Of a DNA stretch of 64,000 nt, positions 21,101-24,100 are shown one piece after another. This DNA comes from Escherichia coli (GTDB taxonomy: Bacteria > Pseudomonadota > Gammaproteobacteria > Enterobacterales > Enterobacteriaceae). The stretch lies in assembly GCF_045037415.1 (NCBI RefSeq), contig NZ_CP173438.1; one strand, given 5' to 3'. The stretch's first letter is position 1. The number at the start of each line of letters is the position of its first letter. Position numbers: made by a program.

Positions 21101-24100
21101 GATATAAAGCGTATTCCCCGGTTACATCCACCCCCTGATAATGTAATTGCTGAGCGGTAGAACAATATGCACAGGCCCTGCTCCCGCAGGGAATGTATTT
21201 ACAACGCTCAAGGATAAGCGCCAGTTTAGCGTAGTTGCTCCACATGTCATCGGCCCCGCCGCAATCCTGTATGAGAATATTGGACACTGTATATGCAGAT
21301 GCGTAGTTAAGCTTACGTATCCGTAAACGCTGCTCCTTTAACACTGCTGATATCGTTTCTTGTGATAAACCAACCTGTTTCCCCATAGTTTCGAACCAAG
21401 GAACCAGCGTTTTTTTCGCAGAACTGGTTTTCGATTTTATCTCTTTCATTTCATTCTCCCGCCTGCATACGGCTGTTAACCCAGTTATTGATATCACTCT
21501 CCAGCCAGCCTACCGCCCGGCCATTGTCGCCCGTTAGCCTCTTTGACAAAGGAAAGAATCCTTTCGAGATGAGTCGGTACAACGTCGCTGACGAGTTCCC
21601 CGTCAGATGAAGTACCTCTTTTTTACGCAAAATACGGTTGGTGTTCATGCTTGTGCTCCTTTGAGCTGTTTCAGGAGCGGGTTATTTACAACCACCAAAA
21701 AACGCAAGGATTCACTCAACGATGCCTTCGTTGAGCACGTTAAGGGCATCTTTAATGTGGATGTCATTCGAGATCATCTATTTCTGTCTCCAGAACGGTC
21801 ATATAAAGAAGCAATTTTCACTGAGGCTCAATGGTGATATTTTGTACAAAACACTGTCATGGAGGTGACTATGATTGGTAACCAAAGCAACAAGGCTGAC
21901 GCCAGATGCCACCGGGAACGGAAAAGCAGTAACGAGGTCTTTGAATTTCTGGAGAAGAAGCTTTATCTGGGACGGGATACCCGGCAAAAACTGGCACTGA
22001 TTGCCCGGAAACTGACGGGAGCGGGTTTTAGCCCGGATAAATTCGCTGCGGAGAAAGCGGCAGATGTGCTGAGTGCCTGCGTGAACCACATGTTTAATGA
22101 CCTGCTCAATGAGGGAGAGCCAAACGGGATTTATAGGCCGGAGGAACACCCCATGATAGTCCCGGCCAGGTCCCCTAAGGCACTGGAAATCTATACTGTT
22201 TACCAGCTTGTAAAAGGTCGTTTTGACAAGCTTCATACGGGGGAGTCAGATCGTGAGAAATATGCTTCGGTAGCAGAAAAACTTAATGAGTATGGAATAT
22301 GGAAACCCCGGTTAAAACGACTCTCTGACGGTAAAGAATGGGCGCGTGAGGATGTTGCGTGGATGCTTCAGCCTGAAAATATCAATGCACAAATTAACAT
22401 CCAGAATCAAAAGTACGCGCGGTTGAGTGCTGAAGATGAAACTGAAACCGAGTCTGGCAACGCCTCAACTGCTAAAAACATCTGATGCGCTTGCTGGCAC
22501 TGATCTTCATAGTATCACCACGACAGTCATAGCGCGTCGTCGTGGATATGTCGCTGTGGCCTGCCAACTGGCGGACGGTATTGATATCCACGCCCTGCTC
22601 CAGCAAACGGGTGATGAAGGTGCGCCGCATATCATGCGGGGTAAAACGTGCTATACCTGCCGTTTGCTGTAACTCAGCCAGGATACCCGTTAACCCGGTC
22701 GTAGTCAGCGGTTGGCTTGCGACCTTACCACTGCGCTGAATTCGCCTAAACAACGCACTGTCAGCCTCGTCTGCGCCAACTTTCAGCCACGCACGAATAG
22801 CCTTGTCCACCGCATCCGCCACGTGAATTTCACGGTATTTACGCCCCTTCCCTTGCCTCACCGTCAGGATGCCGTTGTCATAGTCCCGGCGCTCAAGTTT
22901 AACCAGTTCCCCGGCCCGCAGGCCCGTTCCGCAAAGCATCAGCACAATGGCGACATCGCGACAGCGCCGTACAGATTGCGGATGCTGTTTTGCAGCCTGA
23001 ATCAGTACCCGGATTTCCTGCCTGCCCAGCGCCCTTCCCTTGCGCTGGACATCGCCGCTCACGCGCTTAACTGACCGGATACGTGCCAGCGTTTCGGCAT
23101 CCATGTAATTGAGGTTAAAGGCCGTCTGCGCTACGCCCCGGAGTGCTGACAGCGCCATGTTGACCGATGACACGGCGTAACCGTCATCCAGCAGTGCCGC
23201 GCGCACTTTGGCAACGGCGGCGTAGTTAAGTTGTTCCCACGGATAGTCTGCTGCATCCGCACCGTGTTTAAGTATGCTGGCGCTGCGGTTTAACAGGCTG
23301 GTGATACCTCGCCGTCCCGAGGGGGCCAGACCGACAATATACGCATCGAACACGGTGGTTTGCACCACCGGCACGACCTGACGCAACGCTGTCCTGCTCA
23401 TGCGCGTAACCCGCAATAACGTACATTAAACCAAGTAACTTTCAGCATCACACCAGTCCTCGCTCAGCCATCGACACCGTTTCAGTTCCTGCCACGATAA
23501 AGTGATCAAGTAACCGCACATCCAGTATTTCCAGCAGCTCCTGAAGCTTTTTGGTCAACTGGATGTCACACCGGCTGGGTTCAGGCTCGCCGCTGGGGTG
23601 ATTATGGACAAGGATGACGGCGGCGGCGTTATGTTTCAGCACACGCTTAATAACTTCACGGGGGTGAACGCTGACCGAGTTTAGCGTACCCCTGAACAGG
23701 ATTTCGCGGTGCAGCAGCTGATTATGATTATCGAGTAGGATGATGCCAAACTCTTCATGTTCAAGCGGTGCCAGCTCAACCATCACGCACCGTCGAACAT
23801 CATCAGGGGAACAGAGTTGAACCCCACGCTGGTAGTACCGGCTAATAATGTCACGCGCCTGGTCAAGGATACGGGTTTCACGCTGGGTAAACATGGTCAT
23901 GTCAGAACTCCCGTTCAATGAAGTAAATGGCGTCTGGAAACAGCTGGCGGCGGGTTACGCCAGTACGCAGGGAGAAAGCTTTACGGGGCATGGTGGTTCG
24001 CCCGTTGCTGTCGAAGAAGCAGAGCATTTCTTCGTCCATTTTGACCAGAAGGGACCAGTGAAACTGGTCGCTGAGCATAATCAGGCGAGAGTGGTCAGTG

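What the first reader, a model, noticed from the sequence alone, without database searches (positions are those of the whole stretch)
22472..23416. Second tyrosine recombinase inside the island, convergently overlapping a 208-aa gene
Two unrelated tyrosine recombinases (6574-7749 P4-type; 22472-23416 XerC/D-like) lie within one island, suggesting tandem or nested integrative elements or an internal invertible or resolvable segment. The recombinase 3' end overlaps the convergent 208-aa ORF by 14 nt.
Basis: seen in the sequence. Interest (0 to 1): 0.35.

Follow-up and report, generated by a model that had tools for sequence, protein, structure and literature searches.

The report
Second recombinase of ychF defence island
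An intact second tyrosine recombinase sits in the conserved core of a defence-gene island inserted next to ychF in E. coli ST131 and many related bacteria; it is not a separate nested element or a DNA-flipping switch, and its real job, possibly resolving multimers of the island's excised circular copies, is untested.

Summary
ORF 22472-23416(-) encodes an intact tyrosine recombinase; the real start is probably ATG 23401, giving 309 aa. Its 3' end overlaps the convergent 204/208-aa gene by 14 nt.

It is a canonical two-domain, Cre/Xer-like enzyme. The AlphaFold model has pLDDT 94, all six catalytic residues are invariant, and dN/dS is 0.11-0.17.

The inference of a nested or tandem element, or of an invertible segment, is not supported:
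- The ~28.3-kb island has one pair of att ends, both copies of the ychF 3' end, and no internal copy.
- No inversion appears in ~645 E. coli genomes.
- Recombinase and P4-type integrase co-occur band for band: 506/89/26 versus 514/89/26 genomes.

The recombinase is a fixed core gene of a widespread Enterobacterales island family. The core order is primase-like genes, AlpA, a fast-evolving convergent gene, then recombinase-RadC-x-DUF2787, with variable defence cargo on both sides. RadC-recombinase linkage persists down to 41% identity.

It is not an MpsA-type (MOB_M) relaxase, an integron integrase or an XerC/D orthologue. Its target site was not found.

My best guess, with low confidence, is Cre/ResD-like resolution of the excised, replicating island. 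The closest described analogue is the unexplained second recombinase of pipolins. Interest is moderate.

The parts
6348..6359 (+). attL core: last 12 nt of ychF (TTCAACGTCTAA), left end of the island
   Evidence: Exact 12-nt repeat with 34675-34686. A duplicated copy of the ychF 3' end also marks the far end of the islands in L003, L004 and L009.
6483..6510 (+). Arm-type repeat AAAATGAGTAC..ATGAGTACAA inside the left end, a presumed binding site of the P4-type integrase
   Evidence: 28-nt direct repeat, 82% identical, with 34590-34617. The sequence is shown. Binding by the integrase is inferred.
6574..7749 (+). P4-type (arm-binding) tyrosine integrase, the island's presumed integrase
   Evidence: Arm-DNA-bind_3 6.4e-26, Phage_int_M 3.4e-24, Phage_integrase 4.6e-20. 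It lies next to ychF in every ychF island inspected.
17942..18065 (-). Conserved tail downstream of the 465-aa gene, holding palindrome 17969-17999; unrelated cargos begin at ~17942
   Evidence: 3-4 unrelated cargos join at the same nucleotide. The palindrome was found. The segment is a decayed remnant of the 3' end of a 490-aa-type gene.
18066..19463 (-). 465-aa core gene of unknown family, in the slot held by a DUF927 or 490-aa gene in relatives (putative replication function)
   Evidence: No Pfam, PHROG or PDB match. The same position holds DUF927 proteins in L004, L012 and L023.
20040..20894 (-). 284-aa core gene of the AlpA operon, function unknown
   Evidence: ORF; annotated in RefSeq; no family match.
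20982..21449 (-). 155-aa core gene of the AlpA operon (the ORF could extend to 21497), function unknown
   Evidence: no family match.
21451..21648 (-). AlpA-family regulator/excisionase-like protein, first gene of the leftward operon
   Evidence: Pfam Phage_AlpA 2.6e-12. It is present in every related locus.
21871..22485 (+). 204-aa 'slot' gene (ORF from 21859 = 208 aa): convergent with the recombinase, divergent from AlpA; fast-evolving, function unknown
   Evidence: 30 homologous clusters at 57-100% identity to the query. Alternative slot genes in other loci are transitively homologous. dN/dS 0.22-0.52. AF2 gives an all-alpha model, pLDDT 81.6, with no PDB match.
22472..23401 (-). The finding: 309-aa simple tyrosine recombinase with core-binding and catalytic domains (maximal ORF runs to TTG 23416)
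   Evidence: Pfam 1.4e-31. R162, K185, H256, R259, H282 and Y291 are invariant in 50 relatives. AF2 pLDDT 94.3 with full-length Cre/XerA/IntI4/lambda-Int matches. dN/dS 0.11-0.17.
23402..23447 (-). Conserved RadC-recombinase spacer with motif TTGGTTTAATGTACGTTAT: probably an extended -10 promoter (TGGTTTAAT) plus a small palindromic operator
   Evidence: As conserved as the active-site codons: 4-6 variable columns per 30 against the usual 8-14. Recognisable upstream of the 62%, 53% and 52% homologues. Single copy in the window. The promoter/operator reading is my inspection of the sequence.
23448..23900 (-). RadC-like JAB-domain protein, always immediately upstream of this recombinase family
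   Evidence: Pfam RadC 6.7e-46. RadC-recombinase adjacency holds down to 41-47% identity.
23902..24363 (-). 153-aa core gene (ORF to 24441 = 179 aa), unknown function
   Evidence: no family match.
24483..24905 (-). DUF2787 protein, first gene of the four-gene operon that ends with the recombinase
   Evidence: Pfam DUF2787 6.8e-34.
25040..25069 (-). Sigma-70-like promoter (TTTGCA-18-TATAAT, with TG) upstream of DUF2787-153aa-RadC-recombinase
   Evidence: Best promoter-like match in the region, 10 of 12. Its hexamers are conserved in related loci.
25230..25739 (-). 162/169-aa regulator with a Mu-repressor-like N-terminal DNA-binding region; this slot is swapped for an XRE-type HTH in other loci
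   Evidence: PHROG 310 (1e-07) and 7148, transcriptional repressor (1.1e-05). Module replacement is seen.
25840..26109 (+). HTH_35 winged-helix protein (which I read as Ner-like), divergent from the repressor-like gene
   Evidence: Pfam HTH_35 1.5e-26. The Ner comparison is my own knowledge.
26121..27388 (+). Three conserved core genes (175, 119 and 111 aa) of unknown function; right edge of the core
   Evidence: Conserved at 81-94% across genera. No family hit above cut-off.
34590..34617 (+). Arm-type repeat inside the right end
34675..34686 (+). attR core TTCAACGTCTAA, right end of the island (~28.3 kb in all)
   Evidence: The right-junction sequence is homologous to that of L003.

Best explanation
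The gene encodes an intact, canonical 'simple' tyrosine recombinase: a core-binding domain plus a catalytic domain, with no arm-binding domain. It is a fixed core component of one mobile element, not the integrase of a second element. That element is a ~28-kb integrative island bounded by copies of the ychF 3' end. Its integration and excision are most plausibly carried out by the P4-type integrase at its left end, together with the AlpA-family protein. The recombinase is the last gene of a DUF2787-153aa-RadC-recombinase operon and also has its own conserved promoter/operator-like motif. The shown part is that it is a conserved, selected, catalytically complete core gene, always linked to RadC. 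It co-inherits with the P4-type integrase and is flanked by variable defence cargo. The inferred part, held with low confidence, is its role. I propose it performs an accessory intramolecular recombination during the island's extrachromosomal phase. Like Cre/loxP of P1 or ResD/rfsF of F, it would resolve multimers or cointegrates of the excised, replicating circle into monomers, using one still-unidentified site per island copy.
For: Intact and canonical:
- Pfam 1.4e-31.
- Six catalytic residues are invariant in 50 relatives.
- The AF2 model (pLDDT 94.3) has a five-helix N-terminal bundle plus the catalytic domain and matches Cre at TM 0.72. It also matches XerA, IntI4, lambda Int 75-356 and Tn1549 Int 82-397 over their full length.
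- A C-terminal helix follows the catalytic Tyr. Its protein pattern is kept even where the DNA falls into two classes.
- dN/dS is 0.11-0.17.

Core gene rather than a separate element:
- One att pair and no internal att.
- No repeats at the core edges.
- Genome counts match the integrase band for band, and the two co-diverge.
- The same architecture occurs in Salmonella, Pectobacterium, Serratia, Yersinia, Klebsiella and Pantoea, and in 52-62% relatives.

Pointers to a stability or resolution role:
- The enzyme lacks an arm-binding domain and lies far from the att ends.
- Relatives carry a DUF927 protein in the AlpA operon. I take this as P4-alpha-like from my own knowledge, which would imply replication after excision.
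- Variant cores place toxin-antitoxin genes next to or upstream of the recombinase: CbtA in L012/L013, YeeU-CbtA-DUF905 in L014/L021, and ParE in L024. A ~38% plasmid homologue sits beside a RES-Xre pair.
- This recalls ccdAB-resD of plasmid F (my own knowledge).
- The conserved motif near the gene is single-copy per island, as a resolution site would be. It looks more like a promoter/operator, however.
Against: - No lox/dif-like site (inverted arms around a 6-8-bp spacer) is conserved at a fixed position in the RadC-recombinase block that I scanned.
- The palindromes that exist are specific to particular modules or have variable spacers.
- The recombinase is not in the AlpA/replication operon.
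- The window's own 465-aa and 284-aa proteins have no detectable replication domain, so replication is inferred from relatives only.
- No excised or multimeric form was observed.
- From my own knowledge, P4 and PICI-type islands manage without a dedicated resolvase, and host XerCD could do the job.
- The strict RadC linkage is not explained by this model.
Confidence: 0.4

Rival explanations
1. It is an atypical conjugative relaxase of the tyrosine-recombinase-like MOB_M class, like MpsA of SGI1. It would nick an oriT in or near the conserved RadC-recombinase spacer, so that the island can hitch a ride on a conjugative plasmid or ICE.
For: - SGI1 has the same general layout of P4-type int, xis, rep and a central recombinase-like MpsA (PMC6414798; layout partly from my own knowledge).
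- A 2026 preprint reports MOB_M relaxases as the commonest chromosomal relaxases. 96% lie near an integrase, and they are occasionally annotated as integrases (10.64898/2026.01.13.699239).
- The gene order DUF2787 > 153aa > RadC > [conserved spacer] > recombinase would fit 'leading-region genes, oriT, relaxase' (inference).
- A 41% relative lies near ArdC.
Against: - MpsA, recovered here from a metagenome contig, belongs to a different Pfam family: PF12835 at 7.1e-11, with PF00589 only 0.0017.
- MpsA has no pairwise similarity to this protein (BLASTP E=1.6) and only a marginal profile match (48.8%).
- TcpM matches the family profile only over the generic catalytic core.
- This protein scores 128 bits on the XerC model against 17.5 for TcpM.
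- It has the canonical 32-residue Arg-to-Tyr spacing, against 69 in MpsA, and a C-terminal helix after the Tyr.
- There is no MpsB-like partner gene and no GC-rich inverted-repeat oriT upstream.
Confidence: 0.1
2. One reading: the recombinase is the integrase of a second integrative element, nested in or in tandem with the P4-type island, or it gives the island an alternative integration site.
For: - The core occurs with a different P4-type integrase, at mutS and in flipped orientation, in Pantoea.
- The ST131 island is a mosaic holding remnants of another module type.
- Integrase pseudogene remnants in L002 and L003 show past accretion at this site.
- The recombinase sits on the repressor side of a phage-like switch, as int does in P2-type phages (the P2 comparison is my own knowledge).
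Against: - There is no internal att copy and no repeats at the core boundaries.
- Co-occurrence and co-divergence with the ychF integrase are nearly perfect in 621-629 E. coli genomes, with no second copies.
- The P4-type integrase is also present in the 52% relative.
- The protein has no arm-binding domain.
Confidence: 0.08
3. It drives exchange of the defence cargo that flanks the core on both sides. This would be an integron-like or pdif-module-like capture of DNA at defined junctions.
For: - Cargo on both sides of the core varies between strains.
- 3-4 unrelated left cargos join the core at exactly the same nucleotide, 27 nt beyond a 12-bp-arm palindrome.
- The protein has weak similarity to integron integrases.
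Against: - Right-hand boundaries are staggered: 27391, 27454, 27579 and 27667.
- The two boundaries share no motif with each other.
- The recombinase-proximal motif does not recur anywhere else in the window.
- The palindrome has a 7- or 9-nt spacer and exists only in 465-aa-type modules.
- Integron-integrase models score far below their cut-offs (64 against 265 bits).
- Mosaic breakpoints fall at gene boundaries, as expected for homologous recombination.
Confidence: 0.08
4. It is a DNA invertase (FimB/FimE- or Rci-like) that flips a promoter or gene segment, for example between the AlpA operon and the 204-aa gene.
For: - There are weak matches to tyrosine-type DNA invertase models (3.9e-07 and 5e-07).
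- Divergent genes with a small palindrome lie nearby.
- A 22-nt imperfect inverted repeat flanks RadC (pair I9).
Against: - About 645 E. coli genomes give essentially one collinear place each.
- Alignments across genera are collinear.
- Invertase model scores are about 30 bits against cut-offs of about 220.
- The protein is a full-size two-domain enzyme, unlike the ~200-aa Fim invertases.
Confidence: 0.03

Closest known systems
Second tyrosine recombinase ('IntP2' group) of gammaproteobacterial pipolins (PMC11551731)
   Same: Both are integrative defence islands with an IntSXT-type integrase at the integration site. Both carry a second tyrosine recombinase next to an excisionase and the replication gene, a DUF2787 core gene, and exchangeable defence cargo. 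The authors mention piPolB-less pipolin-like islands and assign the second recombinase only a 'secondary role'.
   Different: There is no piPolB here; the only ORF of comparable size is a DUF2339 membrane protein. No WYL gene was found. RadC is the invariable neighbour of the recombinase. This recombinase is Xer/Cre-like, and I did not compare it directly with a pipolin IntP2.
Cre/loxP of phage P1 and ResD/rfsF of plasmid F (multimer-resolving simple tyrosine recombinases)
   Same: Both have the two-domain architecture without an arm-binding domain. The model matches Cre at TM 0.72 over the full length. The gene sits in a maintenance-type gene cluster that holds toxin-antitoxin genes in variant cores.
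   Different: No lox/rfsF-like site was found. Sequence identity to Cre is only about 17%. The host element is a chromosomal island whose extrachromosomal replication is inferred, not shown.
MpsA of Salmonella genomic island 1, TcpM of pCW3 and MobK of pIGRK (MOB_M relaxases)
   Same: All are recombinase-like proteins encoded centrally in, or carried by, mobile elements. In SGI1 the element has its own P4-type integrase. The catalytic Arg/His/Tyr residues are retained.
   Different: MpsA is in a different Pfam family (PF12835), has no significant pairwise similarity to this protein, and has a different Arg-to-Tyr spacing. No MpsB equivalent is present, and there is no GC-rich inverted-repeat oriT.
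Chromosomal XerC/XerD
   Same: These are the best-scoring curated models (XerC 128 bits, XerD 97 bits), with the same fold.
   Different: The scores are far below the equivalog cut-offs of 335 and 330 bits. The gene is island-borne and single, not one of a heterodimeric pair, and has no dif context. It is Xer-like, not an XerC/D orthologue.
P4-like satellites and PICI-type islands (P4-type integrase, AlpA, primase)
   Same: They share a P4-type integrase at the end, an AlpA-family gene heading an operon with a primase-like (DUF927) gene in relatives, and defence cargo hotspots.
   Different: No capsid-redirecting or packaging genes were recognised, and there are no PHROG hits for the core genes other than the recombinase and the 169-aa repressor-like gene. 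From my own knowledge, those elements have no second recombinase or RadC-DUF2787 module.

Membership tests
Tyrosine recombinase superfamily (Pfam PF00589) | Catalytic residues Arg-Lys-His-Arg-His/Trp and the Tyr nucleophile | tested here: met
   R162, K185, H256, R259, H282 and Y291 are invariant in a 50-sequence alignment. Pfam scores 110 bits against a cut-off of 27.1.
Tyrosine recombinase superfamily (Pfam PF00589) | Two-domain C-clamp fold: helical core-binding domain plus catalytic domain | tested here: met
   AF2 pLDDT 94.3, with helices at 17-109 followed by the catalytic domain. Full-length Foldseek matches to Cre, XerA, IntI4 and lambda Int 75-356.
XerC/XerD orthologues | Score at or above the curated equivalog cut-off | tested here: not met
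   XerC 127.9 against 335 bits; XerD 96.9 against 330 bits.
MOB_M relaxases (MpsA/TcpM/MobK) | Specific sequence relatedness to a proven member, beyond generic recombinase similarity | tested here: not met
   MpsA: BLASTP E=1.6, hhalign 48.8%. MpsA is PF12835, which this protein does not hit. TcpM aligns only over the catalytic core, 93% probability, E=2.8e-7.
MOB_M relaxases (MpsA/TcpM/MobK) | Absence of a core-binding domain, as stated in PMC8152469 | tested here: not met
   A core-binding domain is present. Caveat: TcpM itself aligns to the XerA model over positions 11-255 of 263, so this criterion is weak.
MOB_M relaxases (MpsA/TcpM/MobK) | A cognate oriT next to the gene, and relaxase-dependent conjugative transfer | not testable with these tools
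   A conserved 46-nt spacer lies upstream, but it has no inverted repeats typical of oriT-SGI1. Transfer needs mating assays.
MOB_M relaxases (MpsA/TcpM/MobK) | Score of at least 84 on the CONJscan MOB_M profile of the 2026 preprint | not tested
   The profile (Dataset S2) is not available here.
Integron integrases (IntI) | Score at or above the family cut-off, with adjacent attI and attC cassettes | tested here: not met
   64 against 265 bits, matching the C-terminal part only. No cassette array or repeated site was found.
Tyrosine-type DNA invertases (FimB/FimE, Rci) | Inverted repeats flanking a segment that is found in both orientations | tested here: not met
   No inverted variants in ~645 E. 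coli genomes or across genera. Model scores are about 30 against about 220 bits.
Multimer-resolution systems (Cre/loxP, ResD/rfsF type) | A cis site with two inverted recombinase-binding arms around a 6-8-bp spacer, one per replicon | tested here: inconclusive
   No positionally conserved site was found in the RadC-recombinase block scanned. The window-only scan of 17800-28300 found module-specific palindromes only. The only conserved single-copy motif looks like a promoter/operator.
Multimer-resolution systems (Cre/loxP, ResD/rfsF type) | The host element replicates as an extrachromosomal circle | not testable with these tools
   This is inferred from DUF927 genes in relatives. The window's own 465-aa and 284-aa proteins have no recognisable domain.
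Pipolins | A primer-independent PolB (piPolB) gene as hallmark | tested here: not met
   All island ORFs of at least 100 aa that I took as candidate genes were scanned, apart from one 128-aa ORF inside the intron. None is a DNA polymerase B.
Pipolins | IntSXT-type integrase, a second tyrosine recombinase, an excisionase and a DUF2787 core gene | tested here: met
   The architecture is compared with PMC11551731. Equating the P4-type integrase with the IntSXT group is my own knowledge.
P4-type (arm-binding) integrases, for the other recombinase at 6574-7749 | N-terminal arm-binding domain, central domain and catalytic domain, located at the island/att junction | tested here: met
   All three Pfam domains are present. 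The gene lies 215 nt from the ychF stop/att core.

The most novel reading that the evidence does not exclude
The invariable RadC-recombinase pair, kept down to 41% identity and fitted with its own conserved promoter/operator, could be a previously unrecognised 'establishment' or 'remodelling' module of a large family of piPolB-less, pipolin-like defence islands. One version is that it circularises or monomerises island DNA arriving in a new cell. Another is that it mediates the swapping of defence cargo at the sharply defined core/cargo junction near 17942. Either would give a mechanism for how such islands turn over their defence repertoires.
Probability: 0.12. Interest if true: 0.65.

Novelty: new member of a known kind. 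Interest (0 to 1): 0.35.

Why it matters
About 11% of complete E. coli genomes (621 of 5,426, including most listed ST131 strains) carry this island family, as do many Salmonella, Klebsiella, Serratia, Yersinia, Pectobacterium and Pantoea. It delivers retrons, ABC-3C, Hachiman, restriction systems and helicase-based defences.

Its core always includes a catalytically complete second recombinase whose role is unknown. The same gap exists for the second recombinase of pipolins. Knowing whether the enzyme resolves multimers, helps transfer or reshuffles cargo would explain how these defence islands are maintained and diversified.

There is also an annotation lesson. Two recombinase genes in one island need not mean two elements. 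A central 'integrase' should be checked both against MOB_M relaxases and against resolution-type enzymes before it is used to delimit mobile elements.

Tried and rejected
1. Nested or tandem element. I searched for internal copies of the ychF-end att sequence and for repeats shared by the two core boundaries. Nothing exceeded chance.

2. Inversion switch. I found no opposite-strand pieces in hundreds of genomes. 'Two places per genome' proved to be IS insertions.

3. MOB_M relaxase.
- The SGI1 mpsA primer arm was not found in E. coli genomes, and pIGRK is not in the plasmid collection.
- mpsA was finally recovered from a metagenome contig, and TcpM from pCW3.
- Comparisons show only generic similarity.
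- The published 'no core-binding domain' criterion proved unreliable, because TcpM aligns to XerA almost end to end.

4. Recombination-site hunt.
- Palindromes at 17969-17999, 20918-20948 and 24898-24927 are module-specific, have variable spacers or overlap a start codon.
- No positionally conserved lox/dif-like site exists in the RadC-recombinase block.
- The conserved spacer motif is single-copy and reads as a promoter/operator.

5. Defence-system membership of core proteins: none in PADLOC.

6. Phage origin: no close phage homologue.

7. Function of the 204-aa gene.
- There is a weak Pfam 'Recombinase' hit below cut-off, and the N-terminus looks like a ribbon-helix-helix motif by eye.
- The AF2 model is all-alpha with no PDB match, so the function is left unassigned.

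8. Function of the 465-aa and 284-aa proteins: no Pfam, PHROG or PDB sequence match.

9. Literature. Searches for DUF2787, ychF islands and ST131+ychF found no description of this island family.

10. Names of moderately related clusters were uninformative.

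
Full report
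**1. The observation**

The window carries ORF 22472..23416 on the minus strand: 314 aa from a TTG start. A convergent plus-strand ORF, 21859..22485 (208 aa), overlaps it by 14 nt at 22472-22485.

The minus-strand product is unmistakably a tyrosine recombinase:
- Pfam Phage_integrase E=1.4e-31.
- Best NCBIfam models XerC (4.9e-37), archaeal XerA and XerD, all far below their orthologue cut-offs.
- Best solved relatives archaeal XerA/XerC-like, XerD and IntI4.

Every homologue in the protein databases is 309 aa, and RefSeq annotates 930 nt. The true start is therefore almost certainly the ATG at 23401. RefSeq starts the convergent gene at 21871, giving 204 aa.

The other recombinase, 6574-7749, is a classical P4-type integrase with arm-binding, central and catalytic domains. 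So the factual content of the finding is confirmed.

**2. Is the gene alive?**

Yes.
- In an alignment of 50 relatives at 33-60% identity, the six catalytic residues are invariant: R162, K185, H256, R259, H282 and Y291 in 309-aa numbering.
- An AlphaFold model built on that alignment is very confident (pLDDT 94.3). It shows a five-helix N-terminal bundle (residues 17-109), the catalytic domain, and a C-terminal helix after the tyrosine.
- Foldseek aligns the model over its whole length with Cre (TM 0.72), XerA, IntI4, lambda Int 75-356 and Tn1549 Int 82-397.
- It is thus a 'simple' two-domain recombinase without an arm-binding domain.
- Against eight orthologues from other strains and genera, dN/dS is 0.11-0.17. 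For the 204-aa gene it is 0.22-0.52.

The 'decayed fragment' refutation therefore fails.

**3. Where the window comes from and what the island is**

The region is 100% identical to E. coli ST131 chromosomes. It lies in an island between ychF and dhaR.

The island ends are marked as follows:
- The last 12 nt of ychF, TTCAACGTCTAA, at 6348-6359 are repeated at 34675-34686.
- Arm-type repeats (AAAATGAGTAC..ATGAGTACAA) lie just inside each end.
- There is no further copy in between.

The island is thus one att-bounded unit of about 28.3 kb.

I compared it with islands at the same site in E. coli ST648, H5, an unnamed French E. coli isolate (LT883142.1) and ET826. I also compared a Salmonella replicon, Pectobacterium and Yersinia, and Serratia and Klebsiella loci whose insertion site was not in view. 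All show a constant core with variable cargo on both sides. Reading in window orientation, the core is:
- a primase-like gene (465 aa here; DUF927 or a 490-aa gene elsewhere), then two small genes, then AlpA, all leftward;
- a rightward fast-evolving gene (204 aa here);
- then, leftward, the recombinase, RadC, a 153-aa gene and DUF2787;
- a swappable regulator pair, here a Mu-repressor-like 169-aa protein facing an HTH_35 protein that I read as Ner-like;
- three small rightward genes.

Cargo includes the following:
- DUF2339/DUF3999, ABC-3C and a retron Ec67-type reverse transcriptase in the window.
- Hachiman, a retron St85 system, restriction enzymes, helicases, McrBC and Fic in the other loci.

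**4.

That is what I find.

- By identity band, the recombinase region occurs in 506, 89 and 26 E. coli genomes. The integrase occurs in 512(+2), 89 and 26.
- A genome with the 89%-identity integrase carries the 57%-identity recombinase type. The two genes therefore co-diverge.
- All E. coli copies are chromosomal. The five E. coli islands inspected sit at ychF in the same relative orientation.
- The few genomes with 'two places' that I inspected have an IS splitting the region, not a second copy.
- The 10.5-kb and 2.6-kb queries returned essentially one collinear place per genome, so no inversion variant exists among about 645 genomes.
- No repeats are shared by the two core/cargo boundaries.

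Modularity is visible only over evolutionary time:
- In Pantoea the same core lies beside mutS, with a different P4-type integrase, in the opposite orientation.
- The ST131 island carries two decayed remnants of the 3' end of the alternative 490-aa gene, at 11539-11775 and about 17975-18025.
- Several loci hold integrase pseudogene fragments.

**5. How deep the association goes**

- Close homologues at 87-92% identity occur in Salmonella, Citrobacter, Pectobacterium, Serratia, Yersinia, Klebsiella, Raoultella, Pantoea, Erwinia and others.
- An exhaustive search shows a small dedicated family at 41-62% identity. It sits on top of a very large cloud of generic Xer-like recombinases.
- At 62% and 52% identity the whole architecture recurs. 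The 52% locus has HTH, x, RadC, recombinase, a convergent gene overlapping its 3' end by 15 nt, AlpA, a DUF927 protein, cargo, and a P4-type integrase.
- At 53% identity a convergent gene overlaps by 38 nt.
- At 41-47% identity RadC is still the immediate upstream neighbour.
- The genes occupying the 'slot' between recombinase and AlpA are transitively homologous: 204, 222, 197, 195, 167 and 179 aa. Examples are 204 vs 222 aa at E=7.5e-11 and 179 vs 167 aa at 5e-20.

The convergent partner is thus a conserved, fast-evolving component, as expected for a specificity or immunity-type regulator. Its AlphaFold model (pLDDT 81.6, all-alpha) matches nothing in the PDB. I leave its function open.

**6. 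Expression signals**

A strong sigma-70-like promoter at 25069-25040(-) precedes DUF2787-153aa-RadC-recombinase.

The 46-nt RadC-recombinase spacer is as conserved as the active-site codons: 4-6 variable columns per 30 against the usual 8-14. Its motif, TTGGTTTAATGTACGTTAT, is recognisable upstream of the 62%, 53% and 52% homologues. It is single-copy in the window.

By inspection it reads as an extended -10 promoter (TGGTTTAAT) overlapping a short TTAAT-N4-ATTAA-type palindrome. That makes it more likely a promoter/operator than a 28-34-bp recombinase core site.

**7. What the enzyme does: rivals tested**

(a) MOB_M relaxase. This was a serious rival.
- SGI1 encodes a central recombinase-like relaxase, MpsA (PMC6414798).
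- A 2026 preprint reports such relaxases as abundant in chromosomes, and 96% of them lie near an integrase.
- I recovered mpsA from a metagenome contig using a published primer arm. The 321-aa product has the published landmarks R162, H247, R250, H251 and Y319.
- MpsA belongs to Pfam PF12835, not PF00589.
- It has no pairwise similarity to the window protein (E=1.6) and only a marginal profile match (48.8%).
- TcpM of pCW3 matches the family profile only over the generic catalytic core.
- The window protein has canonical Arg-to-Tyr spacing, a C-terminal helix and no MpsB-like partner.
- The published 'no core-binding domain' criterion (PMC8152469) is unreliable, because TcpM aligns to XerA almost end to end.
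- I rate this rival at about 0.1.

(b) Integron-like or pdif-like cargo exchange.
- Three to four unrelated left cargos join the core at exactly the same nucleotide, 27 nt beyond a 12-bp-arm palindrome. This is unexplained.
- Against it, the right boundaries are staggered and no motif is shared between the two boundaries.
- The palindrome has a 7- or 9-nt spacer and is specific to one module type.

(c) Invertase: excluded as far as assemblies can show (section 4).

(d) Defence-system component: no PADLOC match for any core protein.

(e) Phage gene: no close phage relative.

**8. Best-supported reading**

What is shown:
- The recombinase is a conserved, selected, catalytically complete core gene of one integrative element.
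- That element's ends and end-proximal integrase are of the P4 type.

What is inferred, from three lines of evidence:
- The enzyme is of the simple type and lies far from the att ends.
- Relatives carry DUF927 genes behind AlpA, which suggests replication after excision.
- Variant cores put toxin-antitoxin genes next to or upstream of the recombinase: CbtA, YeeU-CbtA-DUF905 and ParE. A plasmid homologue lies next to a RES-Xre pair. The arrangement resembles ccdAB-resD of plasmid F (my own knowledge).

From these I infer that the enzyme most likely resolves multimers or cointegrates of the excised circular island, as Cre and ResD do.

Confidence in this mechanism is low, about 0.3:
- No lox/dif-like site was found.
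- No circular form was observed.
- The strict RadC linkage is unexplained.

Confidence that the gene is a core accessory recombinase, and not a second element's integrase or an invertase, is high at about 0.85.

**9. Comparison with what is known, and novelty**

The closest described system is the pipolin. Pipolins have an IntSXT-type integrase at the integration site. They also have a second tyrosine recombinase beside an excisionase and the replicative gene, a DUF2787 core gene, and exchangeable defence cargo. The second recombinase has only a vaguely defined 'secondary role', and the authors mention piPolB-less pipolin-like islands (PMC11551731).

The present island has no piPolB and no recognised WYL gene, and it is characterised instead by the RadC-recombinase pair. 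I found no paper describing this island family.

The gene itself is routinely annotated as 'tyrosine-type recombinase/integrase'. I therefore class the finding as a new member of a known kind. It has moderate interest, an open functional question, and a small chance of revealing a cargo-turnover or establishment mechanism.

Noticed in passing
window 8547-10806: A group II intron is inserted in an IS3-family (ISEc24-like) transposase gene. Evidence: Rfam domain V/VI hit at 10729-10815 (E=7.9e-11) and a reverse-transcriptase ORF at 9203-10297 (RVT_1, 6.7e-35). The transposase is split into an HTH_21 part (8192-8611) and an rve part (10848-11264). The 2.26-kb segment is absent from ST131 strain MB1341 (L001).
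   Followed up: partly
window ~18512-18518 (within the 465-aa gene 18066-19463): ST131 strain MB1341 carries an ISEc52 insertion that splits this core gene, and the annotation summaries of many other listed ST131 genomes also show ISEc52 in the region. Some further have ISEc23 or IS1 elsewhere in the core. The window's copy of the gene is intact, so the window comes from a strain with a less IS-eroded island.
   Followed up: partly
window ~17942 (junction) and 17969-17999 (palindrome): Three to four unrelated cargo segments (window/L001, L002, L006, L007) begin at exactly the same nucleotide after ...GTCCGCTTTGAGC. The junction lies 27 nt beyond the palindrome GGATATGCGCAT-(7 or 9 nt)-ATGTGCATATCC. 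The mechanism of this precise cargo turnover is unexplained.
   Followed up: partly
window 11539-11775 and ~17975-18025: Two diverged, same-orientation remnants of the 3' end of the alternative 490-aa core gene, which is intact in L004, L005 and L008. They bracket the left cargo (DUF3999, DUF2339 and an IS30 remnant). This shows the island is a recombinant mosaic of family members.
   Followed up: partly
window 25230-26109: The regulatory region looks like a Mu c/ner-type switch. A 169-aa protein with a Mu-repressor-like N-terminus is divergent from an HTH_35 (Ner-like) protein. In other loci the whole module is replaced by a single XRE-type HTH gene.
   Followed up: partly
window 28268-33814: The right-hand cargo is a three-gene ABC-three-component (ABC-3C) system (MC2 and CTD6 domains) plus a retron Ec67-family reverse transcriptase/endonuclease (32042-33814). 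The retron's non-coding RNA was not looked for.
   Followed up: no
window 13020-17111: The left-hand cargo is a DUF3999 + DUF2339 (large membrane protein) gene pair of unknown function. The DUF3999 gene is annotated as frameshifted in strain MB1341.
   Followed up: no
window 17207-17888: Remnant of an IS30-family transposase (frameshifted and truncated) between the left cargo and the core.
   Followed up: no
window 23902-24441: The 153/179-aa core protein between DUF2787 and RadC has a Q...C..CG.Y motif near its N-terminus (QQGELDCLCGAYC) that resembles papain/C39-like cysteine peptidases. This is by eye only; no family hit.
   Followed up: no
window 24898-24927: A lox-like palindrome, ATATTCATCAG-TGATTTTC-CTGTTCAATAT, overlaps the ribosome-binding site and start codon of the DUF2787 gene. 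It lies exactly at a recurrent homology breakpoint (24904-24929). It is present only in loci with the Mu-repressor-type regulator, so it is more likely a translational hairpin or operator than a recombinase site.
   Followed up: partly
L020 (CP101356.1, Salmonella 'plasmid' pIndS104-CTX, 135-184 kb): This 322-kb record, labelled a plasmid, carries a long stretch of chromosomal housekeeping genes (kdsA...ychF) with the ychF island, next to plasmid transfer and partition genes. It is either a chromosome-plasmid chimera or a misassembly.
   Followed up: no
L025 (pCW3) 25036-25836: The proven MOB_M relaxase TcpM aligns to the archaeal XerA model over positions 11-255 of 263. MpsA also has an N-terminal region of core-binding-domain size that aligns with the core-binding part of this recombinase family's profile. 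The published statement that MOB_M relaxases lack a core-binding domain therefore seems doubtful.
   Followed up: partly
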